This document shows positions 4,601 through 58,371 of a stretch of 64,000 nt of DNA, piece by piece; within the stretch, counting starts at the first letter, position 1, and each line of letters opens with the position of its first letter. Both the position numbers and the translations under genes were made by a program. The notes under the pieces were generated by a model. It did no database searches. It worked only from the letters and a program-made list of their open reading frames with translations, and was not told where the DNA came from. This stretch comes from Eledone cirrhosa (taxonomy: Eukaryota): positions 9,796,001-9,860,000 of the forward strand of contig OZ024751.1 of NCBI GenBank assembly GCA_964016885.1. The letters are read 5' to 3'.

Positions 4601-6190
4601 GAGCAGGATACAAGTTGGGAAGGGGAGAGCTTACCATCAATCACCTCCTCTTCATGGACGATCTTAAGCTCTTCGGGAAAAGTGAGAAGGAGTTGGATGT
4701 GCTTGTTGACACTGTCCGTATTTTCAGCAGTGATATATGTATGCAGTTTGGTATTGGTAAATGTGGAGTCATTGTGATGAAGAGGGGTAGGTTGAGCAGA
4801 AGTAACGAGATCCAGATACCAACAGGTGAGATGATAAAGGAAATTGACTCTGAGGAAGGATACAAGTATTTGGGCGTTCTGGAGGCTGATGGCATAAAGA
4901 ACAAAAAAATGAAGGAATTGTTAAGAACTGAATACATTCGGAGAGTAAGGAGCGTATTGAAGTCACATCTGAACAGCAGAAATGCCATAAGCGCAGTAAA
5001 TTCCCGAGCTGTGTCTATTATTAGGTACAGTGCGGGAATTCTGAGATGGAATGTTGCTGAACAAAAAGAAATGGATAGGAAGACTAGGAAGCTATTGACT
5101 ATCTACAACATGTTCCACAAGAGGAGTGATGTCGATAGACTCTACCTAAGGAGATCTGAGGGTGGAAGAGGTGTTATCAGCATAGAGGACTGTGTTCAGA
5201 TGGAGAAAAACAACCTATACAAATACGTGACCTATAGTAAGGAGCCAATGCTCAGAACTGTACTGAAGGAGGGGACAGTAGGCCAGGGGATGTCCAAGGA
5301 GGAAATAACATCAAGGAGGAAGAGCAGCCTTAAGGGAAAATCCCTTCATAGTACCTTCTTTGAGAAAACTGAATTTAGAGATCCACAGACATGGAACTGG
5401 TTGAGAAGAGGAGACCTCAAAAAGGCTACAGAAGGAATGCTAATGGCTGCGCAGGAGCAGGCCCTCAAAACGAAGTGGTTGAATCACCATATTTACAAGG
5501 AGGAGGCTAGCCCACTGTGCAGGATCTGTGGAGAGAGAGAGGAGACTGTGGCTCACATTGTGTCCGAGTGTAAACACCTAGCCCAGACCCACTATAAGGG
5601 CTGGAGACACGATGTGATGGGCAGGGTGATCCACTGGCACCTGTGCAAAGTAAACAATTTACCACATTCTGAGAAATGGTATGAGCATAGGCCAGAGGCG
5701 GTGATGGAGAACAATCAGGTGAAGGTGCTATGGGATTTTAGGATACAGACGGACAAAAAACTGGAACACAATAGACCTGACCTGGTGGTTGTGGACAAAG
5801 AAAAAAGATCGTGTCTGATTGTGGATGTGCCCTGCCCGTTCGACACGAGAGTGCAAGAGAAGGAGAGGGAGAAAATTAACCGATACCAGGACCTAAAGTG
5901 GGAGGTGAAAAGGATTTGGAACTGCCATGAAGTCAAAGTGATCCCGATTGTCATAGGCGCACTGGGGACTATCTCCAAAAGTTTCCAGGGATGGTTAAAG
6001 AAAATCGGCCCCTTCACGCTTTTTGGAACGCTTCAAAAGGCATGCTTGCTTGGAACAGCAAGAACCCTCCGATACGTCCTGAATATCTGAGGCTGCAGGT
6101 AGTGGCTTGATATTCAATCCAACGGACTTTCCAGTTAACCAACATCAATGACTGAGATTCAAGGAATAACAACAATAATAATAATAATAA
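1618..6190 (+). mobile_element. Dong family A, full-length copy A3
   Basis: Starts GGGAAGAAGACGCACGAGG right after (TAA)n; ~1.08 kb 5' UTR, single ORF, short 3' UTR, (TAA)n tail. Confidence 0.92.
2699..6090 (+). pseudogene. Dong A polyprotein: N-terminal domain, reverse transcriptase, CCHC knuckle, restriction-like endonuclease; one nonsense codon and one frameshift
   Basis: [51 protein letters not shown]; TAG at 3989-3991 where Trp is expected; frame change near 4185. Confidence 0.9.
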
Positions 6191-6198
6191 TACGATAA

Positions 6199-9100
6199 TA
6201 GCCAATATACGAAGAAATATTGTAAGAAAAAAGTTACTAACTGATATAGAAATTGATCAGATCAAGCTATTAGCACAAAGTCAGCGAAGGGAAAATGAAA
6301 CATGTGTCAATGAAAACGAGGTAAACTGTAACACTTCGAATCCCAGGGTTGGGGCGGAATCACTGGCAACAGAACAAATTAAAGAAAGGATAGAAAAAGT
6401 GGAGGGAGTGCATGCTCAGGATGAAACTCCAAATGAAAATAATGAGATCGTAAATGATAAAGAAATGAATGAGAATGAACTTGCCAACTTGAAGGATGAA
6501 ATTATGATCGAATGGATGAAAATGAAAGAATCTGACATGGGGCAACGAGACACCCTCCCTAAGATCCAGAACTCCAAACAGAACCAAAAGATAATACACA
6601 AGACTAACATAATTCTCAAAAACATTATCATCACAAACAAACTAAACATTACTGATTTAAATCATCTCTATTATGCATCGGCTAAAGTCACCACTCACTT
6701 ATGTGGAGTGAAGATGAAAAAACAAAGGAATTCCCACAAGAAATCTACTTGGCAAGAGAACATCAATCGCCAAATAAACCTTCTCCGATCTGACATAGAA
6801 ATTTTAACAAACTATAAAGTAGGTGAACATGTTAAACAAACTAAACTTAGAAAATTGAAAAAAAAGTACAGTATAAAATCAACAAGTGACATAGACATGC
6901 TGATAGAAATAATCAAGCAAAAAGTTGTCGGCCAAAGCTGCTCGTATAAGGCGCTTTGAAAAACGATCTAGATTCTATAAGGACAATAATATGTTCAAAA
7001 ACAACCAAAGAAACTTCTACAGAAAAATTGGTAAGTCAACAATAACTGCTAAATCAATACCACCCAAGGAGGAAGTGCAAGAATTCTGGGAAAAGATCTG
7101 GGCCGAAGAAAAAGTTCATAACATACATTCCCCATGGATAGACAGACAAATGAAAGAAACAGCTCACCTTGAGGAACAAATATGAGAAAATATAACAGTT
7201 GAATAGTTGCGCTTGGCTCTAAGAAAAACCAGCAAATGGAAATCGCCAGGAAAAGACAAAATACAAAACTTTTGGATAAATGCCTTCACAGAGTCTCATG
7301 AGCTGTTAGCCCAACTTTACAATGAAATAGTTAAGGAGCCAGAAAAGATATCATCATGGCTAATTAACGGCATTACATTCCTGTTTCCGAAGAATGATGA
7401 GACAAACAATCCCAAAAATTAGAGACCGATAACTTGCTTGACCACAATGTATAAAATTTTAACATCAGTCCTAACTGAATACACATATGACCACCTGATA
7501 ACAAATGACCTATTTCAAATTGAGCAGAAAGGGTGTAAACGAGGCTCATATGGCTGTAAGGATCAGCTTCTGGTTAACAAAATGATACTGGAAGATTGTC
7601 ATAATAGACACAAAAATCTATCGATTACTTGCATAGATTATAAAAAGCATTCGATAGTTTGCCACACAGTTGGATTGAAAAATGTTTAGAGATTTTCAAA
7701 ATAACCCCCGTTGTCAGGAGGTTTCTGTCATTGAGTATGAAGACATGGAAAACGACACTCCTTTTGAATAGTGAAACAAAATCACTGGAAGCTGGAGAAG
7801 TTAATATTAATTGTGGAATTTTTCAGGGTGACTCTTTATCACCGCTTTTATTCTGCATCGCGCTTATACCATTAAGTAAAATGCTCAATGAAACAAAACA
7901 TGGATATAAAGTCTATGACAAAACCATTAATCACTTGTTCTACATGGATGACCTGAAACTATTTGCAAAAAATGATGAACAATTGCAAGGGCTATTATAC
8001 ACTGTGGAGCAGTTCAATGATGACATTAAAATGGAGTTTGGACTAGATAAATGCGCCAAAGCAACGTTCACCAGAGGAAAGCTGCGGAAGAGTTCAGACA
8101 TTAATCTTGATCGGGGGAACGTGATAAGAGAACTTGATCAAGAAAAAACTTACAAATTTCTAGGTGTTTGTGAAGGAGACGGAATCAAGCACTCGACAAT
8201 GAGGAAAAGGATAAGGAAGGAATGTTACCGCAGAGTAAGAGCAATCTTAAGAACGGAATTGAATGCAAGGAATAGGATCGATGCCATAAACACGCTTGCC
8301 ATACCAGTAGTAACCTACAGTTACAATGTCATCAAATGGTCAAGCACAGAGATCCGTAGGCTCGATACAAAAATTCGAAAATTCTTAACAATGCACAGAA
8401 TGCATCACCCTAAGGCAGATATAGATAGAATATATCTCCCTAGGAAAGAAGGAGGACGTGGGTTAATCCAGTTAGACATTGCGTTGAAAACTGCAACAAT
8501 TGGATTATCTACATATCTAAGGGAATCACATGATTGGATGATCAAACTCGTTTTGAAACACGAAAGCATCAAAAGATCATATTCCATTACAAAAGATGCA
8601 CAAAGATACAGTAATGGACTACAAATTTCAGAAGTCCCATTTACTGCTGAAATGGAAAACACAGAAAAAGCAAAGCAGGTAAAAATAACTGCAAAGAAAG
8701 AACTGCTACAGAAACTGGCTAAGAAATGGCAAGAAAAGCCTCTGTATGGAAAATACCCAGAAAGAGCTAACAATCCTGATGTTGACAAAACTTTAACCCA
8801 TCAGTGGTTGGTATCCTTAGACTGAAATCGAAGACTGAATGACTGATTATATCAGCACAAGATCAGTGTCTGCCAACAAAAAATTACCAAGCCAACATAA
8901 TAAAAAATGGATGCAACCCATTATGCCGTGTATGCAAAAAACAACCAGAGACCATTGATCATATAATTTCAATGTGCAGTCCTATAGCTCCAACCGAATA
9001 CCTAAACAGGCATGACAGAGCTGCACAATACATACATTGGATAATGTGTAAGCATTTTGACCTGCCCCATCAAAAGAATTGGTGGGAGCCTCAACCACTT

Positions 9101-9663
9101 CCCACACTGGAAAAAGATCACATCTCAATTTGGTGGAACCTTAGCATGCAAACAGACCGAAAAATAGATGCAAATAGACCTGATGTTATACTGAAGGACT
9201 TTAAAAAGAGGGTATGCCTGCTAATTGATATGTCCGTTCCAATAGACAAGAATGTATCTATAAAAACATTTGAAAAATTGAGCAAGTATAAAGACCTGGA
9301 GATAGAAATTGGAAAAATGTGGAAATTGAGAACTAAAACAATACCAGTGGTTGTAGGCGCTCTAGGAATGATACCTAAGGGGTCTAATGATTACTTATCG
9401 CAAATCCCATGAAACCCGCGTATAGGAGAAATACAAAAGATAGTACTAATGGGAACTGCCCATATACTAAAGAAGATTCTGTCAATATAAGTACATCACA
9501 AGTCTAAACACTAAAGATGCATGTGTGAGTGTGTATGTTCTTTCTTGAACATGGCGGACCTTGTTGTCTCTTGAGGTCACTGGTTGTGACTTGGTGATAA
9601 CTCGTATGAACATAAAACAAGATAAATGCAACTGTAATAATAATAATAATAATAATAATAATA
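6199..9663 (+). mobile_element. Dong family B, 5'-truncated decayed copy B1
   Basis: ORF fragments with [29 protein letters not shown]; several stops and frameshifts; homologous to the reverse complement of 30052-33458; (TAA)n tail 9635-9663. Confidence 0.92.
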
Positions 9664-10266
9664 CATTAGTTAATGTGAATAACAATAACAATTGTTTAAA
9701 TACGAATAATAGTAGAACACCTAGAAATAATAATGATAATACGAATAGTTCCGGTTATAGAAATAACATGGAGTTGAACTGTAACTGTAGAAGGAAATTT
9801 GATTGCCCTTTACAAAATAATTGCCTTGACAAGAATTTAGTATATAAATGTACCATTAAGACAAATAATAATAATACTTATAACTACATTGGTACCACTT
9901 CATTAAACTTTAAGTTTCGCTTTTCCAATCATAAACATTCATTCTCTAATCCAATTAAAAAATTCTCTACATCATTATCACAATTAATATGGTCTTTAAA
10001 AGAGAAAAATATTAAATACTCAATTTCTTGGAGTAAACGAAAGAACTCTGACTCCTATCGGAACGCTTCCATTTCCCCAAATTGCAATCTTTGCAATGTG
10101 GAAACTCTATTAATAATTACAAATTATGGTAATTTAATTAATAAGAAGAAATAATTATTCGGAACTTGTCTACATAAGTCTTGAAGAAACTTTCAAGCAT
10201 TATACAAATTTCGAAAAAATTACTGACTACGAAGGAAAAAATATTGACTATTAATGATTCTTGAAA

Positions 10267-12455: not shown

Positions 12456-17180
<4,725 letters not shown>

Positions 17181-22249: not shown

Positions 22250-22560
22250 CCAAAATTAACGTATATAAAGATCGCTGGAATAGCCATAATCATTCTTTCA
22301 GAAGATCTGATAAAAAATCTTCCACTTCTCTTTCACATCTCATATGGAACTTAAAAAGTAAGAATATAGACTATTCAATATCTTGGAAAATGATTTCTTA
22401 AGCACCTGCGTACTGATTTATGACTTGATCAATATTCTGTAAATTGTGTATCGAAGAAATTTTTTATATAATTAACTGTCAAAACTCTATTAATCTCAGG
22501 ACAGAATTATTTTCTTCTTGCAGACATCACCAAAATTCTACATTGAGAACTATGTCTAAT
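22250..22560 (+). pseudogene. PLE GIY-YIG C-terminal remnant
   Basis: YKDRWNSHNHSFR..STSLSHLIWNLK..YSISWK..CKLCIEE..LFSSCRH, with stops. Confidence 0.75.
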
Positions 22561-30051: not shown

Positions 30052-33000
30052 TTGCATTTATCTTGCTTTATGTTTATACGAGTTATCACCAAGTCACAAC
30101 CAGTGACCTCAAGAGACAACAAGGTCCGCCATGTTCAAGAAAGAACACACATATTCACACATGCATCCTTAGTGTTTAGACTTGTGATGTACTATATTGA
30201 CAGGATCTTCCTTAGTATATGGGCAGCTCCCATTAGTACTATCTTTTGTATTTCTCCTATACGCGGGTTTCCTGGGATTTGCGATAAGTAGTCGTTAGAC
30301 CCCTTAGGTATCATTCCCAGAGCGCCTACAACCACTGGTATTGTTTTAGTTCTCAATTTCCACATTTTTCCAATTTCTATCTCCAGGTCCTTATACTTGC
30401 TCAATTTTTAAAATGTTTTTATAGGTACATTCTTGTCTATTGGAACAGACATATCAATTAGCAGGCATACCCTCCTTTGAAAGTCCTTCAATATTATATC
30501 AGGTCTATTTGCATCTATTTTTCGGTCTGTTTGGATGCTAAAGTTCCACAAGATTGAGATGTGATCTTTTTCAAGTATGGGAGGTGGTTGATGCTCCCAC
30601 CAATTCTTTTGATGGGGCAGGTCAAAATGCTTACACATTATCCAATGTATGTATTGTGCAGCTCTGTCATGCCTGTTTAGGTATTCGGTTGGAGCTATAG
30701 GACTGCACATTGAAATTATATGGTCAATGGTCTCTGGTTGTTTTTTGCATACACGGCATAATGGGCTGCACCCATTTTTTATTATGTTGGCTTGGTAATT
30801 TTTTGTTGGCAGACACTGATCTTGTGCCGATATAATCAGTCCTTCAGTCTCCGATTTCAGTCCAGAGGATGCCAACCACTGAAGGGTTAAAGTTTGTCAA
30901 CATCAGGATTGTTAGCTCGCTCTGGGTATTTTCCATACAGAGGCTTTTCTTGCCATTTCTTAGCCAGTTTCTGTAGCAGTTCTTTCTTTGCAGTTACTTT
31001 TACCTGCTTTGCTTTTTCTGTGTTTTCCATTTCAGCAGTAAATGGGACTTCTGAAATTTGTAGTCCATTACTGTATCTTTGTGCATCTTTTGTAATGGAA
31101 TATGATCTTTTGGTGCTTTCGTGTTTCAAAACGAGTTTGATCATCCAATCATGTGATTCCCTTAGATATGTGGATAATCCAATTGTTGCAGTTTTCAACG
31201 CAATGTCTAACTGGATTAACCCACGTCCTCCTTCTTTCCTAGGGAGATATATTCTATCTATGTCTGCCTTAGGGTGATGCATTCTGTGCATGGTTAAGAA
31301 TTTTCGGATTTTTGTATCGAGCCTACGGATCTCTGTGCTTGACCAGTTGATGACATTGTAACTGTAGGTTACTACTGGTATGGCAAGCGTGTTTATGGCA
31401 TCGATCCTATTCCTTGCATTCAATTCCGTTCTTAAGATTGCTCTGACTCTGCGGTAACATTCCTTCCTTATCCTTTCCCTCATTGTCGAGTGCTTCATTC
31501 CGTCTCCGTCACAAACACCTAGATATTTGTAAGTTTGTTCTTGATCAAGCTCTCTTATCACGTTCCTCCGATCAAGATTAATGTCTGAACTCTTCAGCAG
31601 CTTTCCTCTGGTGAACGTTGCTTTGGCGCATTTATCCAGTCCAAACTCCATTTTAATGTCATCACTGAACTGCTTCACAGTGAATAATAGCCCTTGCAAT
31701 TGTTCATCATTTTTTGCAAATAGTTTCAGGTCATCCATGTAGAACAGGTGATTAATGGTTTTGTCATAGACTCTATATCCATGTTTTGTTTCATTGAGCA
31801 TTTTACTTAATGGTATAAGTGCGATGCAGAATAAAAGCGGTGATAAAGAGTCACCCTGAAAAATTCCACAATTAATGTTAACTTCTCCAGCTTCCAGTGA
31901 TTTTGTTTCACTATTCAAAAGGAGTGTCGTTCTCCATGTCCTCACACTGAATGACAAAAACCTCCTGATAACGGGGGATATTTTGAAAATCTCTAAACAT
32001 TTTTCAATCCAACTGTGTGGCAAACTATCAAATGCTTTTTTATAATCTATCCAAGCAATCGATAGATTTTTGTGTCTATTATGACAATCTTCCAGTATCA
32101 TTTTGTTAACCAGAAGCTGATCCTTACAGCCATATGAGCCTCGTTTACACCCTTTCTGCTCAATGGGAAATAGGTCATTTGTTATCAGGTGGTCATATGT
32201 GTATTCAGTTAGGACTGATGTTAAAATTTTATACATTGTGGTCAAGCAGGTTATCGGTCTGTAATTTTGGGGATTGTTTGTCTCATCATTCTTCGGTAGC
32301 AGGAATGTAATGCCGTTAACTAGCCATGATGGTATCTTTTCTGGCTCCTTAACTATTTCATTGTAAAGTTGGGCTAACAGCTCATGAGACTCTGTGAAGG
32401 CATTTATCCAAAAGTTTTGTATTTTGTCTTTTCCTGGGGATTTCCATTTGCTAGTTTTTCTTAGAGCCAAGCGCAGCTGTTCAACTGTTATATTTTCCCA
32501 TGTTTGTTCTTCAAGGTGAGCTGTTTCTTTCATTTGTCTGTCTATCCATGGGGCATGTATGTTATGAACTTTTTTCTTCGGCCCAGATCTTTTCCCAGAA
32601 TTCTTGCACTTCCTCCTTGGGTGGTATTGATTTTTCTGTAGAAGTTTCTTTGGTTGTTTTTGAACATATTATTGTCCTTATAGAATCTAGATCGTTTTTC
32701 AAAGCGCCTTATACGAGCAGCTTTGGCCGACACTTTTTGCTTGATTGTTTCTATCAGCATGTCTATGTCACATGTTGATCTTATACTGTACTTTTTTTTC
32801 AATTTTCTAAGTTTAGTTTGTTTAACATGTTCACCTACTTTATAGTTTGTTAAAATTTCTATGTCAGATCGGAGAAGGTTTATTTGGCGATTGATGTTAT
32901 CTTGCCAAGTAGATTTCTTGTGGGAATTCCTTTGTTTTTTCATCTTCACTCCACATAAGTGAGTGGTGACTTTAGCCGATGCATAATAGAGATGATTTAA

Positions 33001-34919
33001 GTCAGTAATGCTTAGTTTGTTTGTGATGATAATGTTTTTGAGAATTATGTTAGTCTTGTGTATTATCTTTTGGTTCTGTTTGGAGTTCTGGATCTTAGGG
33101 AGGGTGTCTCGTTCCCCCATGTCAGATTCTTTCATTTTCATCCATTCGATCATAATTTCATCCTTCAAGTTGGCAAGTTCATTCTCATTCATTTCTTTAT
33201 CATTTACGATCTCATTATTTTCATTTGGAGTTTCATCCTGAGCATGCACTCCCTCCACTTTTTCGCTCCTTTCTTTAATTTGTTCTGTTGCCAGTGATTC
33301 CGCCCCAACTCTGGGATTCGAAGTGTTACAGTTTACCTCGTTTTCACTGACACATGCTTCATTTTCCCTTCGCTGACTTTGTGCTACTAGCTTGATCTGA
33401 TCAATTTCTATATCAGTTAGTAACTTTTTTCTTACAATATTTCTTCGTATATTGGCTAGTTTGTTACTGTCAATATAGCCTCTGTTTTCGGGATGTTTCT
33501 TTTTCCAGTTGATATATGTTTGCTCTGTATTCGATGTATTTGATGGGTAGTACATGGCAGTGTAGAAAGCCTCAAGGACTTCTTTATTATCTTCCCTTGA
33601 CCATTTTTCTCTCTTTTTCTTTGGATTTCTTGGTGGTGAGCATGGAGGGCCAACAGTAGGAGTATTCCGGTTATGGGAGGTCTCCAGCTCCGAAGTGATG
33701 GGAAGGTTTGAACCATTAGCTGATTTTTCGACCCCAGTCTGGTTCCTCTCTGAGGGACGCGGCCCTTTTTTACCCGGGTGACGGCCGATCCGGTATGAGA
33801 TTTCATCATTAGACATCTACTTTATTTTGTCGCGTTTTATCCTTATCCGCCAAGGGGTAATCTTTTCGTGTTACCACTTCTAGAACGAGTGTCAACCAAG
33901 ACTAGAGGGGTCGTTCTCCCCTAGAGACATGGCTATTCCCCGCCGGCCGCCATCCCGGTATTTCTTGGTCACGAGGTTTTCTTTTTGTTGTTTTTTTTAA
34001 ATTGTTATTATCATGAGTGGTTCCTTAATGTGAGCATTGCGTGGCTTAAGAATGAAATTATTAATAATTGTCTCCACTCCAGGCACAAGGCCAGCAATCA
34101 CCCAGTGCATTACAATAATATAATATACTTTTTGTTGTAGTTGGCTGTTATTGCTGCTGGCTATGTCGGTGGTGGTGCCGGGGCTTTTTATATTGTTGGT
34201 GAGGAAGGGGTGAGCCAGCAGTCCCATAATTGTTGATGTAGACGTTTGTCCGTGGCAAGGTCACCAAGTCAATCTATTTATATCTTTTGCTAGCCTCTCT
34301 CTTGTCTAGTGCTACCACCACCTTCCCTTTTCTCTCTCAAGTTAACAGGGGAATAGTGTCAGTAGCATTGAATGAGTGGTGGCGGTGATGATGGATGTGG
34401 TGGGGTGGTGGCAGCGGTGGTGTTGTGGTTACTGATATAGTATCTATGAGTTTGTGTTCGTATGTTTAATATATATTTTCATTATATTTTGTGTTGACAT
34501 ATTCCCGTAAAATTTGAATTAAACATTTTTTAAAATTTGAGACAATAATAATAGTAATTATTATTATGATGCCGGTGAAGTTGCCGTTATATTTAGTGTG
34601 ATGGGATAGGTAGTGTATCAAGTTTCTGGTGTTGGTGAAATTGAAATTGCCGCTGTTCTATATAGTGTAGACAGAGGGTGTTTTGTTCCATTTATAACCA
34701 TTTTCTTTTTTTGAATACAAAATATATAATACAAAATTGAATATTTGAGCGATACAACAATATAATATGGATCCGAAACTTTATGGGACCTCATTTGGTG
34801 CCTTTATGCAACATTTGTGCTAAGAATTGTTCTTTCACAATTGATTTAAATATGTTAAAAATCAAAAAACTTACGGGAGCAATTTCGTGACGTTCTACCA
34901 CCTCGTGCGTCTTCTTCCC
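30052..34919 (-). mobile_element. Dong family B, full-length copy B2 embedded in (TAA/TGA)n (29870-30051 and 34920-35060)
   Basis: 5' end GGGAAGAAGACGCACGAGG, ~1.1 kb 5' UTR, RT/CCHC/RLE ORF pieces, 3' UTR matching 9490-9632. Confidence 0.92.
30192..33816 (-). pseudogene. Dong B polyprotein (RT, CCHC, RLE) with about four frameshifts
   Basis: ORFs 32542-33816, 30887-32533, 30408-30875 and 30192-30404 join into one protein: WIDYKKAFD, LFYMDD, CRVCKKQPETIDHIISMC, RPD. Confidence 0.9.
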
Positions 34920-37835: not shown

Positions 37836-38397
37836 CAGCTTATCATCTGTTTATCCAAACGAAGCTAGGTACGTCAGCTATATATACATATACACATCTG
37901 GATGCCGTAGAACACGCCAATGGTAGCCGGGTGACAGCCAGACGGGACAGCTAGTATATTAATATATATATATATTGTATAAAAAAACAAATGGGACTAG
38001 ATTGTTTGAACACCTGTCAGAGTTATTCCCCCTGCTCTGAGATAATAACAGCACATGCAAGTAGGAGAAGAATGAACTCTGATGTTAATTTAACCGTGAA
38101 ACCCCTAATGGGTCCTGTATTGATCATTTTTTTGTTTTCCATGCCCTTCATAAGCCCATTTCGGGCAAAAGGTACGTAGGCGCACTGTTATATAAACATG
38201 TTCTAACGGTTTTAAACTCCTTGTATTCATTTCTTTTATAATCGCTCTGCTTATTTTTTCTCGCCCACTAAATATTGACGCTTCTGTAGGCACGAGTATT
38301 GAGCACATATACATATACTATTGGCAACTAAATATATGTATCGCCTATCTTTCCTTTTTTCTCTCTCTCGATATTTAAACATTCTCTATATATATAT

Positions 38398-40255
38398 AGG
38401 AACGAGTAGGACCCCGACGGCTGAGCTCAAGCCGTTTCGACGGCTAATTCTGGACTAAATGAAAAATTTATCCTGGAATTTGAATAGCCGAGCTTCTCAA
38501 GGGGTAATTCCATATATGGTAGAAGTGATTGTCACAAGGATTGGTCAAAAGTTTATTGTTGAGACATAATAATTCTATCATGGCAATTTGTGGAGGGAAG
38601 GGGTAGAAGAACCTGCCAGTAGGAGAAAGAGGGAGAGGGGTGGAGGAGACCCAGTCATGCATTGATAGTGCCGACTACAGCTGGGCATGAGGTCAAAGAG
38701 GATACTAGGGAGGGGGAGGGGGAGGAAGTCGAAACAATAAGTAAAACAATATGGGGTAAAAATATAGAAAAATACCGAGAGTGTTAAAAAGCAATTAAAT
38801 GTAAAAAAAAATAAACAATTTCTGGTTACTACGACCTAAGGACTGCTATCAAGTCTCTCACTTGTACTGCTAGGCTAAAGAAAGGTTTACTAGGTGGGAT
38901 GGAATTATAATGAGACCCTTTTAAGAGGTATAAGTAATAAACCGAGTGTATCTTACGGTGACGGGTCAACAAGTGAGGGGCCAAAATACTAAAGAAACTA
39001 CCACGAAATAATAAATAAAGGTTTCTACCCCAGGCACAAGACCAGAAACCACCCAGTGCAAAAAAATAAACTAATACGAATAATAATTCAGAATCCAGAA
39101 AAAGAATACTAATACTATCTCTAAGGGTGCCGCCACGATACAAAAATTCTAGTGCAAACTACATAAATGCTCGTACGAAGTATATGTAAAATTTGATACG
39201 GAAAATTAATTCAGAATCCCCCCCCCCCCCAACCCCCAAAAATAATAAATACTGATATACGAGAAATTAAAGCAAAGATACCACTAAGAAATATAGAAAG
39301 CACGGAAAAGGGGCAGCGATCGGATAAGAAGGCAAGTATCCGGGGTCTAACACATCTGCTATAAAAAGCGGTGTCGGCCAAATCTATCATAGAATAGGGG
39401 AAGGGGTGGGGGGTACTGAGGCTACAAAGGAACGAGGGGCTGCCTCGGGTGGGCGAGAAAATGAAAAGGACGACGACAAAGAAAGAGGACTGGGGTGGAA
39501 GGACTAGGGAGGGATGGGGGGAAGAAGGAAATATAGAGGAAGCGATAAAAAGATATAAAAGAAGATCTTACGTCTACCTTTGCAAGCGGGGTTACCCGTT
39601 ACAAAATCGGCAGGTGGGGTGTTATAGCCCTAGTCTACCCTCCCGGGTCATTATGGGGTTTGAGGGCGAGGTAAGTCCTGCGCAATCTGTGTTTACATGC
39701 AGTAACCAGTTCATCTTTCATGTTTAGGAGTTGGTCCGTCGAAAACAGCATTTTTAAAGTTTCCTCCGAGCATAAATTGCACGGGCGGCGTCCTCCCGTA
39801 TAAGAGTTGGCTCTGAACAGTAAGCTCCAAGTGAGATCATAGGTAATGTTGTTATCCTTGAGGTCCCATATGTGGCCCGAAAGTGTAGTGGCGTGACGCC
39901 GGGTCGGGTTTCGGAAGGTATGTCTGTGTTGGTATAGCCGGGTCTTGAAGTCACATGCGGTTAATCCTATATAAGCTTTGTTGGAGGTGTCCGTCCTCAC
40001 GTTGCACTGGTAGATCACATTACGATCTCTGCTTCTGTTGTCGAGGGGGAAAATGGATCCATCAGGACAGTTGCACCTCCTGGTCGGCTCTCCACTGCTA
40101 TTTAGGTTATTTCTTCCATAGGGGTTGAGTTTTTTGTTGTTAGAGGAGACGATGTTTTGTGCGAAGTTTGGTGTGGTGCTGTAAGAGAGTTTGATGGTAT
40201 TTTTGTTAATTATGTTGTGGTAGCGGTGTTGTAGTGGGAAGTGTTTTTCAATGAG
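38398..40255 (-). mobile_element. 5'-truncated PLE (Naiad-like): GIY-YIG 39635-40250, long 3' UTR/pLTR
   Basis: KLSYSTTPN..RCNCP..IYQC..AYIGLT..FKTRLYQH..CNLC..ACKH; terminal HHR. Confidence 0.82.
38411..38505 (-). ncRNA. Type I HHR, U3-A8 core variant, GUC cleavage site
   Basis: ACCCC-TTGAGAA-G..CGGCTA/TAGCCG..C-GAAA-CGGCT/AGCCG-TC-GGGGT. Confidence 0.78.
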
Positions 40256-40269
40256 CCTATATATATATG

Positions 40270-40589: not shown

Positions 40590-42380
40590 AGAGAAAAGTT
40601 TAGATTTACCCAATTTGATATTGTAGATTTCTACCCCTCTATTACTGGACCCTTATTAACTAAAGCTTTATAATTCGCTAGACAATTTATTAATATATCC
40701 AATTTAGATGAGGATGGTATTTTACACGCTGGGAAAACGCTACTTTTCGCTAAAGAAGAAACATTGGTTAAAAAATCAAACCCAGAAAACCCTTTTGACG
40801 TCTCTCTAGCTTCGTTTGACAGTGCCGACGTGTGCGATTTAGTTGGATTATTCCTCCTCCACACTCTTAAAGTAAAATTTCCCGACCATACTATCTGCTT
40901 ATACCGAGACGATGGATTGGCTGTCTCTCATACCAACAACGGCCATAACCTCGACAAATTCTGTAAAGATTTAATTAATAACTTTTCTAACCTAAACCTC
41001 AAAATTACTATAGATACTAACCTAACTAATACTAACTTCCTCGACATCAATATTGACCTATTTACTGCCTCTTTCAAACCCTACCATAAAGCTAACGAAA
41101 ATTTAAAATATATACACAAAGAGTCTTGCCATCCTCCTATTGTAATTAAAAACCTTATTCCTAATATTAGTCGTAGGATCTCTACTTATGTAGACATTTT
41201 TAATAAAGCAGCCCCTCATTATAATAAGGCCCTTAAAAATAGTGGTTTCAGCGAACAAATCGAATATATACCCACTCATCCTACTACCACTAAACACAAA
41301 ATTAGGAAAAGAAAAATAATATGGTTTACTCCACCTTTCTCTTTAACAGTTAAAACTAACATTGGAAAAAAATTCGTTGAACTTCTAGAAAAACATTTTC
41401 CCCAACAACGTAGATATAATAAGATATTTAATAGAAATTTAGTTAAAATTGGCTACTTTTGCTGCCCATCCATGAAATCTAAAATTACCAACATGAGTAT
41501 CAATAAATGAAATCCGGGATGTAGTTGCAGAAAAGCTGAAGAATGCCCTTTACAGGGAAAATGCAATACGAAATCAATCGTATACGAGGCTAAAGTAACA
41601 CCTATTGTGAATAACCAACGAGCCATGAGTGAGCGATATGTGGGTATGACGCAAGATAGATTCAAAATCAGATACTACGCACATGTCGCTTCCTTCAAAC
41701 ACCCAGACAAAAGAACAACTACAGCGCTGGCAAATAAAGTGTGGGAGTTAAATGAACGTAAGATTCCATATTTGATTGATTGATCCATTTTAGACTACTC
41801 AAAAGAATACCAGAAAGGCTCAAAGAAATGTTCTTTCTGTATAACCAAAAAATACAGAATCTTGCAAAATATGAAATCTGCTAATACTTGCCTCAATTCT
41901 AAAACTGGATTCATCAGAAGTTGTCCACACATGAAATCACATCTTCTTTCCAGCTGGTATAATATACCTTTGGACACTCAACTACCCTAAACTTTCTCAT
42001 TTTACAAATTAACTCTTCCACTCATTACCCTGATCTCTTTATGAACATATACATTTAACTACAACCATTACACACAATAAACACCCACTTATTTATTTTA
42101 ATTATATCCCCCTCCACTTTTTTTTATACCTTTAACACACACATACCGACCAGTTTCATTCTTTCCACCCTTCATAACCTATTAGAGACTTAAAACACTT
42201 CTTCCTTTTTAACATTTAGCCTACCTTTATCTACAACCAAAAACACTCACTTATTCACTTTAATCACATATCCTTTGTCATACCCTTAACACACACACTC
42301 TGACTATCCTCATTACTCTATCATAGCCCTTTTCTTTTTTCCTAATAGTTGTACTATTGTTCTACATACACCTTTACATT
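40590..42380 (+). mobile_element. PLE (Naiad-like) RT plus GIY-YIG pseudogene and 3' UTR
   Basis: FDIVDFYPSI, FDSADVCDLVG, LYRDDGL, RKRKIIWFTPPFS, CSCRKAEECPLQGKC..IVYEA..YVGMT. Confidence 0.88.
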
Positions 42381-55199: not shown

Positions 55200-55640
55200 C
55201 ATAACACAAACTGCAATGCCACCAGCCCGAGAGATGCCTATTGAAGAATAAATGTCTGGAGTCCAACATTGTTTATCAATGCACTGTCGAATCAAACGAC
55301 CAGAAATGGTATTACGTCGGGTCTACCACTACCTCCTTTAAATCACGCTGGTATCGTCATCGATTTTCGATTAAACATCCTAATCACCGTTATGTAACTA
55401 CACTAGCTAATAAGACCTGGCAACTCCGTTAATACAACCGGCAGTTCACCCTAAAATGGGATAAATTATCCAGCGCTAGTGCATATCGGAGTGGATTAAA
55501 ATACTGCAGATTATGCAACCTTGAACTTTTTTATATCTTGAAATCTAAAATCAATTTACTAAATTACTGAATCGAACGATTGTTACACTGCAACCACAAA
55601 CTGAAGGTTAAATGTTCTCACTATAAAAGTAACTTAACAT
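55200..55640 (+). pseudogene. PLE GIY-YIG remnant
   Basis: NKCLESNIVYQC..YYVGSTTTSFKSRWYRH..CRLCNLE. Confidence 0.8.
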
Positions 55641-58212: not shown

Positions 58213-58302
58213 TCCTCTTGATAAGTCGGCAGACCTCGCAAGGACTCTATATCTTTATGATATATTGTTTTTGTTTATGCCACGAAACTATGTAGTCGAG
58301 GA
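58213..58302 (+). ncRNA. Type I HHR, U3-A8 core variant, GUC cleavage site, in a solo pLTR (58042-58372)
   Basis: TCCTC-TTGATAA-GT(C)GGCA..TGCCAC-GAAA-CTA TG TAG-TC-GAGGA. Confidence 0.75.
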
Positions 58303-58371
58303 ATTTAGGAGCAGTTTAGGTATGATACATTTTATTACTAATTATATCTAAATGTTTCTTCTCTCTTCATA

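What the first reader, a model, noticed from the sequence alone, without database searches (positions are those of the whole stretch)
38411..38505. U3-A8 hammerhead variant 2: full three-stem ribozyme at the end of a Naiad-like PLE
Seen: perfect 5-bp stem I (ACCCC/GGGGT), core TTGAGAA, long stem II, GAAA, 5-bp stem III and a GUC site, in the expected place and strand for the 38398-40255 element. Its sequence is unrelated to variant 1. With 17080 and 58213, three independent families use U3-A8, suggesting a sizeable ribozyme population in this lineage that canonical searches overlook.
Basis: partly seen in the sequence, partly recalled or inferred. Interest (0 to 1): 0.75.

Follow-up and report, generated by a model that had tools for sequence, protein, structure and literature searches.

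The report
Retrotransposon hammerhead core broke, then repaired
This is a real hammerhead self-cutting-RNA motif at the end of a very abundant jumping gene; its swapped core pair is already published, but the family's tree shows the pair broken for about 1,800 copies and later restored, which suggests that efficient self-cutting is likely helpful but not required for the element to spread.

Summary
The motif is real: a type I hammerhead on the minus strand (38505-38411) with a U3-A8 core, 17 nt inside the 3' end of a 5'-truncated retrotransposon inserted in (TA)n. The element is a Hydra-clade Penelope-like element (PLE), not a Naiad. U3-A8 cores are published (Perreault 2011; about 1,300 hits in Schistosoma PLEs, Cervera 2014), and this scan noted them before on other DNA (e1-9560118, e1-9525137). 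The three window families give about 23,600 U3-A8 copies genome-wide, yet canonical C3-G8 motifs outnumber U3-A8 19 to 3 in 780 kb sampled elsewhere. Not found in print: of 7,487 family copies, 5,477 are U3-A8 and 1,830 carry a C3·A8 mismatch. An ORF tree orders the master lineage U3-A8, then C3·A8 (about 0.06 substitutions per site), then U3-A8 again; the window copy is among the revertants. Helix III is a palindrome, and folding predicts a double hammerhead, including mixed dimers. Best reading: a weak, dimer-dependent ribozyme under soft selection. No cleavage or expression data.

The parts
38411..38505 (-). Type I hammerhead motif, U3-A8 core
   Evidence: pair counts
38501..38505 (-). Stem I 5' strand (ACCCC)
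38494..38500 (-). Core U3 U4 G5 A6 G7 A8 A9
38439..38493 (-). Stem II: G10.1-C11.1, internal loop, 6 bp, variable long loop; compensatory pairs between subfamilies
38435..38438 (-). G12 A13 A14 A15.1
38418..38434 (-). Helix III and loop: 16-nt palindrome with one extra U; predicted dimer interface
38415..38417 (-). U16.1-C17; predicted cleavage between 38416 and 38415
   Evidence: hammerhead consensus
38411..38415 (-). Stem I 3' strand (GGGGU)
38399..40257 (-). 5'-truncated, damaged copy of a Hydra-clade PLE (full unit 3,531 bp), between two (TA)n tracts
39635..40257 (-). 3' end of the ORF: CxCX5C linker (damaged in this copy) and C-terminal GIY-YIG endonuclease
38387..38398 (.). (TA)n tract at the element's 3' junction
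40258..40268 (.). (TA)n tract at the 5' truncation junction

Best explanation
This is a type I hammerhead motif with a U3-A8 core at the 3' end of a Hydra-clade Penelope-like retrotransposon, which likely cuts the element's tandem transcripts weakly and as a dimer, and whose cutting is probably helpful but not required for copying. Shown: motif, position, clade motifs, copy numbers, tandem 3,531-bp units with one motif per unit 191 nt before the next ATG, and the order U3-A8, C3·A8, U3-A8 along the master lineage (rooted on one sister-subfamily copy). Predicted: the palindromic helix III joins two units so that the core of one cuts the GUC of the other; mixed dimers would let paired-core RNAs cut C3·A8 RNAs in trans. 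Inferred: selection on the 3-8 pair is soft, enough to favour reversion and keep the rest of the core, too weak to stop about 1,830 mispaired insertions. The window copy is promoterless, truncated and most likely inert.
For: Core free to vary, first 100 of 6,068 matches: U4, A6, A9 100 each, G5 99, A8 98, N7 all four bases, position 3 U 76 / C 24. Whole-genome counts: 5,477 U3-A8, 1,830 C3·A8, 117 non-A8, 63 purine-3 by subtraction, of 7,487. A 721-copy subfamily chosen by letters outside the core is C3 in 94 of the first 100. ORF tree of 46 copies: 2 changes at position 3, both forced by well-supported branches; one C3 clade rejected, p-AU 7e-52 (rooted drawing). Stem II shows compensatory changes (G-C/A-U in 10 of 36 rows). 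Dimer gain -14.9 kcal/mol against a median -7.9 for 200 loop shuffles, 1 as good. The double hammerhead is the best dimer for 60 of 70 intact copies and for 4 of 4 old x C3·A8 pairs. The youngest subfamily folds better (median P 0.34 vs 0.017). Papers: metazoan PLE hammerheads cleave weakly and as dimers (PMC4209133); hammerhead mutants do not impair PLE insertion in vitro and cleavage needs the protein (PMC11167929).
Against: No cleavage assay and no RNA evidence: the one RNA run laid 0 contigs. [quoted passage not shown] The long trunk time with C3·A8 (0.062 substitutions per site) fits no need for cleavage equally well. One U-to-C change and one reversion, both transitions, could be drift. 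The root rests on one outgroup copy with a 110-residue match. Copies were sampled on purpose, mostly from contig C1. Folding energies ignore proteins and the 3.5 kb between units. Two of the four whole-structure covariation counts did not beat shuffles (pairs with two-sided change 417 of 500; further pair types 497 of 500).
Confidence: 0.6

Rival explanations
1. The motif no longer needs to cut. It is kept as a folded RNA landmark (protein binding, dimerisation or end definition), and the 3-8 pair drifts.
For: 1,830 mispaired copies and a small U3·G8 side group amplified. No C3-G8 subfamily seen (8 of the first 100 of 117 non-A8 matches). Hammerhead mutants insert normally in vitro (PMC11167929). 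Copy ends lie 17 nt or more past the cut site, not at it.
Against: The other core letters and the GUC site stay fixed while loop II diverges (14 of 14 vs 14 of 32). The lineage returned to a Watson-Crick pair.
Confidence: 0.2
2. C3·A8 stayed active, through a C·A wobble or a shifted register in which C3 pairs with G7 and A9 becomes the extra base before stem II. Cleavage was then needed throughout.
For: C3 copies nearly all have G7 (94 of the first 100). U3-G7-A8 copies with the old stem II exist (4 copies). An extra base between 9 and 10.1 is common in PLE hammerheads (PMC4209133).
Against: Linkage to G7 may only reflect shared descent. Single mutants at this pair have low activity (PMC9901934; C3G and G8C in PMC11167929). 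The later reversion would then be unexplained.
Confidence: 0.15
3. C3·A8 copies are independent post-insertion decay or a non-autonomous side branch, not a stage of the master lineage.
For: One isolated C3 copy sits inside the young U3 clade (L178), so single changes do occur.
Against: C3·A8 is 29 times the purine-3 class (1,830 vs 63). It is 94% within one subfamily. The C3 rows form a ladder leading to the young U3 clade.
Confidence: 0.04
4. Chance resemblance to a hammerhead.
For: The monomer's best fold is not a hammerhead; no Rfam match.
Against: Shuffle controls, conservation pattern, expected position in a PLE clade known to carry hammerheads.
Confidence: 0.01

Closest known systems
Hydra clade of C-terminal-endonuclease PLEs (Craig et al. 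2021, PMC8557442; passages, Hydra section, supplementary tables S1-S2 and parts of S4 seen)
   Same: Single ORF with RT then GIY-YIG; RW[K/R], DKT, CxCX5C, no CCHH, CxxC and CxH; (TA)n target; 3' hammerhead; tandem and inverted copies. By eye co-linear with the printed part of Hydra-1_Obim.
   Different: All 26 Hydra rows of table S2 have C3-G8, short stem II and a small loop III. Here: U3-A8 or C3·A8, a 55-nt stem II, a 16-nt palindromic helix III, a 3.5-kb unit and thousands of copies.
U3-A8 minimal hammerheads of Schistosoma mansoni Cercyon PLEs (Cervera and de la Pena 2014, PMC4209133; parts 1-2 of 4 read)
   Same: U3-A8 core in a PLE terminal repeat, missed by a canonical descriptor (about 1,300 hits); G10.1-C11.1; palindromic helix III region; proposed dimer action.
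   Different: Those lack helix III; this has 6 bp plus a palindromic loop. The parts read describe no C3·A8 subfamily or lineage history.
Natural U3-A8 hammerheads (Perreault et al. 2011, PMC3088659; passages read)
   Same: Same compensatory core pair, reported in several natural examples and stated to be active in vitro.
   Different: Rare examples, no copy-number or lineage data in the passages seen.
PAc Poseidon hammerhead of Anolis (Frangieh et al. 2024, PMC11167929; parts 1-2 of 4 read)
   Same: Hammerhead near the pLTR-ORF junction; copy ends and tail lie downstream of the cut site.
   Different: Canonical core, Poseidon clade. Tested in vitro there (protein-assisted, dispensable for insertion); untested here.

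Membership tests
Type I hammerhead ribozyme | Three helices around the core, open at stem I | tested here: met
Type I hammerhead ribozyme | U4 G5 A6, A9, G12 A13 A14, A15.1-U16.1, H17, G10.1-C11.1 | tested here: met
Type I hammerhead ribozyme | Watson-Crick 3-8 pair (canonical C3-G8) | tested here: met
   U3-A8 in the window copy and 5,477 of 7,487 copies; absent in 1,830 C3·A8 copies
Type I hammerhead ribozyme | Hammerhead is the preferred monomer fold | tested here: not met
   P about 0.01 for the window copy; met for the youngest subfamily (MFE, P 0.39) and as a dimer
Type I hammerhead ribozyme | Self-cleavage after C17 | not testable with these tools
   no assay; no RNA reads
Type I hammerhead ribozyme | Loop I - loop II tertiary contact | not tested
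   only secondary-structure folding was run
Hydra-clade PLE | C-terminal GIY-YIG after RT in one ORF | tested here: met
   717 aa; YRDD at 348, VIY...YIG at 591; by motif only, Pfam gave no hit
Hydra-clade PLE | RWK motif, DKT, no GxKF/Y | tested here: met
   RWR at 37 (conservative variant), DKT at 117, no GxKF/Y
Hydra-clade PLE | CxCX5C linker, no CCHH, CxxC before E and CxH after N | tested here: met
   one Cys between VIY and YIG
Hydra-clade PLE | (TA)n insertion and 3' hammerhead | tested here: met
Hydra-clade PLE | Placement in the Hydra clade in an RT tree | not tested
   reference proteins not available to the tools; compared by eye only
Naiad PLE | N-terminal GIY-YIG endonuclease | tested here: not met
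   endonuclease is C-terminal
Naiad PLE | DKA motif, CX2-5CxxC and CCHH fingers, no canonical hammerhead | tested here: not met
   DKT; no CX2-5CxxC; no CCHH; hammerhead present
Neptune/Nematis PLE | CX2-5CxxC linker and CCHH motif | tested here: not met

The most novel reading that the evidence does not exclude
PLE hammerheads work as a shared pool. A master element with a dead C3·A8 core kept transposing for about 1,830 insertions because paired-core transcripts cut it in trans through the invariant palindromic helix III, until reversion restored self-sufficiency. This would be a natural ribozyme cheater with compensatory repair recorded in one genome.
Probability: 0.2. Interest if true: 0.75.

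Novelty: new variant of a known kind. Interest (0 to 1): 0.45.

Why it matters
Whether PLE hammerheads must cleave for the element to move is open (PMC8557442 discussion passage; PMC11167929). This family supplies a natural allelic series in one lineage (U3-A8, C3·A8, U3-A8, a minor U3·G8 group), with relative order and copy numbers, and an intact young element to test it in. It also shows that canonical searches here miss about 25,000 motifs (U3-A8 plus C3·A8 in these three families), though canonical cores remain the majority. The U3-A8 core alone is not news.

Tried and rejected
Rfam: no hammerhead hit (one search showed only the best 150 of 319 matches, none a hammerhead). Pfam: no hit for P0001 or the 717-aa ORF. 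Naiad and my own first guess, Neptune, were rejected on motifs. Expression: one RNA run with an 8% word share laid nothing; two DNA runs under other organism codes hold pieces, too few to read a core history, and were not used. The first tree on 3' UTR DNA dropped 108 of 171 copies at the filter and was replaced by ORF trees. Rows left out of the final tree: of 76 copies with a protein match, 11 failed the length or distance filter, 16 near-identical youngest copies were thinned, and L178 (lone C3), L191 (long branch) and L309 (A3) were removed; with those three in, the tree needs 3 changes, p-AU 4.9e-6. Two sampled stretches next to the window were left out of the 780-kb count. 'U3-A8 dominates this lineage' was rejected. 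Przybilski and Hammann 2007 and Lunse et al. 2017 are not held and could bear on C3·A8 activity and prior report. Supplements of the other papers were not read. No report of an amplifying C3·A8 subfamily turned up in searches (open-access library only) or in the summaries of earlier notes.

Full report
1. Observation. The minus strand of 38505-38411 reads stem I (5 bp), UUGAGAA, a 55-nt stem II closed by G10.1-C11.1, GAAA, a 5-bp stem III on A15.1-U16.1, UC, and stem I. A structural descriptor found it and three more U3-A8 motifs in the window (17082, 17911, 58217), against 0.1 U3-A8 hits per shuffled replicate of 464 kb (20 replicates). Rfam gave no hammerhead at E<=10 on a 271-nt slice. The monomer's best fold is a competing hairpin; the hammerhead costs 1.8 kcal/mol more and holds about 1% of the ensemble.

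2. The element. The motif ends 12 nt inside an insertion spanning 38399-40257 between two (TA)n tracts. The insertion carries the 3' end of an ORF. Relatives are abundant, and many have intact 784-codon open frames. One array has units of 3,531 bp, more than 99.9% identical, each with one hammerhead, plus a short inverted copy at its 5' end. The ORF is 717 aa from the ATG, 191 nt after the predicted cut. It has RWR, DKT, YRDD, a CxCX5C linker, a C-terminal GIY-YIG without CCHH, CxxC and CxH. These are the Hydra-clade features of Craig et al. 2021, and the printed part of Hydra-1_Obim is co-linear by eye. The window copy is 5'-truncated and has lost two cysteines near the linker. Of 27 distinct 3' ends, 11 run into (TA)n, 12 carry the tail and 4 are other.

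3. The motif is under selection. With the seven core letters free, the first 100 of 6,068 matches keep U4, A6 and A9 (100 each), G5 (99) and A8 (98); N7 takes all four bases; position 3 is U in 76 and C in 24. Against an older sister subfamily the core is 14 of 14 identical, stems 28 of 30 and loop II 14 of 32. In 36 aligned copies 91% of cells pair, stem II has three pairs with two-sided changes, and slid controls reach at most 52%; two pair-count measures did not beat shuffles.

4. Population. Exact patterns give 5,477 U3-A8 copies for this family, 6,131 for the 58213 family, a 591-bp tandem repeat, and 12,163 for the 17080 family; the last two are U3-A8 in 99 of the first 100 listed. The total is about 23,600. 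In 78 stretches of 10 kb taken at fixed steps, the descriptor found 19 C3-G8, 3 U3-A8 and 4 mispaired cores; shuffle means were 0.1 and 0.15. That scales to about 73,000 canonical (44,000-114,000) and 11,500 U3-A8 (2,400-33,700). U3-A8 is large but a minority.

5. The mismatch phase. Of 7,487 family matches, 1,830 are C3·A8, 117 have another base at 8 (8 of the first 100 are C3-G8), and 63 have a purine at 3 (by subtraction). C3·A8 is a subfamily state: 94 of the first 100 of a 721-copy group defined outside the core. Trees of the ORF's 3' end are ladder-shaped. Rooted on a sister-subfamily copy, old U3-A8 copies branch first, a C3·A8 grade follows (node 99/93), and a U3-A8 clade holding the window copy and the youngest elements sits on top (99/96). 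With three rows removed the tree needs exactly two changes and a single C3 clade is rejected, p-AU 7e-52. The C3·A8 trunk spans 0.062 substitutions per site. Limits: chosen sampling, 600 columns, one outgroup row.

6. How it likely works. Helix III is a 16-nt palindrome with one extra U. Two copies co-fold into a double hammerhead, with helices I and III between units and helix II within each, 14.9 kcal/mol better than two monomers; 1 of 200 loop shuffles did as well. This holds for 60 of 70 intact copies and for all 4 old x C3·A8 mixed pairs. The other two window families also have palindromes there. In this geometry the core of one unit cuts the GUC of the other, so a mispaired unit could still be cut. 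The youngest subfamily gained changes that make the hammerhead its best monomer fold. I infer weak, dimer- and possibly protein-assisted cleavage of tandem transcripts under soft selection. Rivals: a non-catalytic landmark, or a C3·A8 core that stays active. Cleavage and expression are untested.

7. What is known. U3-A8 is reported in natural hammerheads (PMC3088659, passages) and in about 1,300 Schistosoma PLE motifs (PMC4209133, parts 1-2 of 4). All 26 Hydra rows in Craig's table are C3-G8. Core mutants did not impair PLE insertion in vitro (PMC11167929, parts 1-2 of 4). In one type III hammerhead only G3-C8 rescued the pair (PMC9901934, passages). Also seen: PMC7229834, PMC6765202 and PMC7151607 (passages), PMC2920678 (part 1 of 2), bioRxiv 10.64898/2026.07.22.740005 (part 1 of 5). 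Earlier scan notes report U3-A8 motifs and a Hydra-clade copy with long stem II on other DNA; I reached the Hydra assignment before seeing the Hydra notes. I found no report of an amplifying C3·A8 stage, but two key papers were unavailable. Hammerhead numbering is standard knowledge. The host is called octopus-like in earlier notes; I did not test that.

8. Verdict. Observation confirmed; interpretation partly supported. A known core variant in a known clade, with a lineage history that makes the need for PLE ribozyme cleavage testable. Interest 0.45.

Noticed in passing
window 58213-58305 (+); L241-L260: U3-A8 hammerhead of a 591-bp tandem repeat, 6,131 pattern matches, retrozyme-like; helix III palindrome, with a CpG-type change in the window copy.
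   Followed up: partly
window 17079-17118 and about 17911 (+); inverted decayed copy within 12557-12849: Short U3-A8 hammerhead family, 12,163 matches; the inverted copy lies downstream of a GIY-YIG/RT PLE remnant at 13664-15177 (-).
   Followed up: partly
L051 about 6315-6365 (tail after the 3' end): The optional tail folds into a hairpin; a similar motif is visible at the 3' end of Hydra-2_Amil in the supplement. Earlier notes link such a hairpin to the start of copying.
   Followed up: partly
window 40602-41930 (+), also 9726-10202, 22264-22542, 55214-55606: Other decayed elements related to this ORF (33-39% identity); one sits back to back with the finding's element.
   Followed up: no
L215, L350 (sampled stretches): A canonical C3-G8 family shows G3·G8 twice and U3·U8 once; it may hold mispaired subfamilies too.
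   Followed up: no
L101, L108, L111, L122, L123, L126: A small U3·G8 group with its own stem II letters.
   Followed up: no
L016, L017, L019-L027: One G5U copy repeated about every 100-300 kb on contigs C20 and C27, likely within a large tandem duplication.
   Followed up: no
window 6181-9489 and 30193-33476: Inverted pair of a 96-97% identical LINE-like RT element.
   Followed up: no
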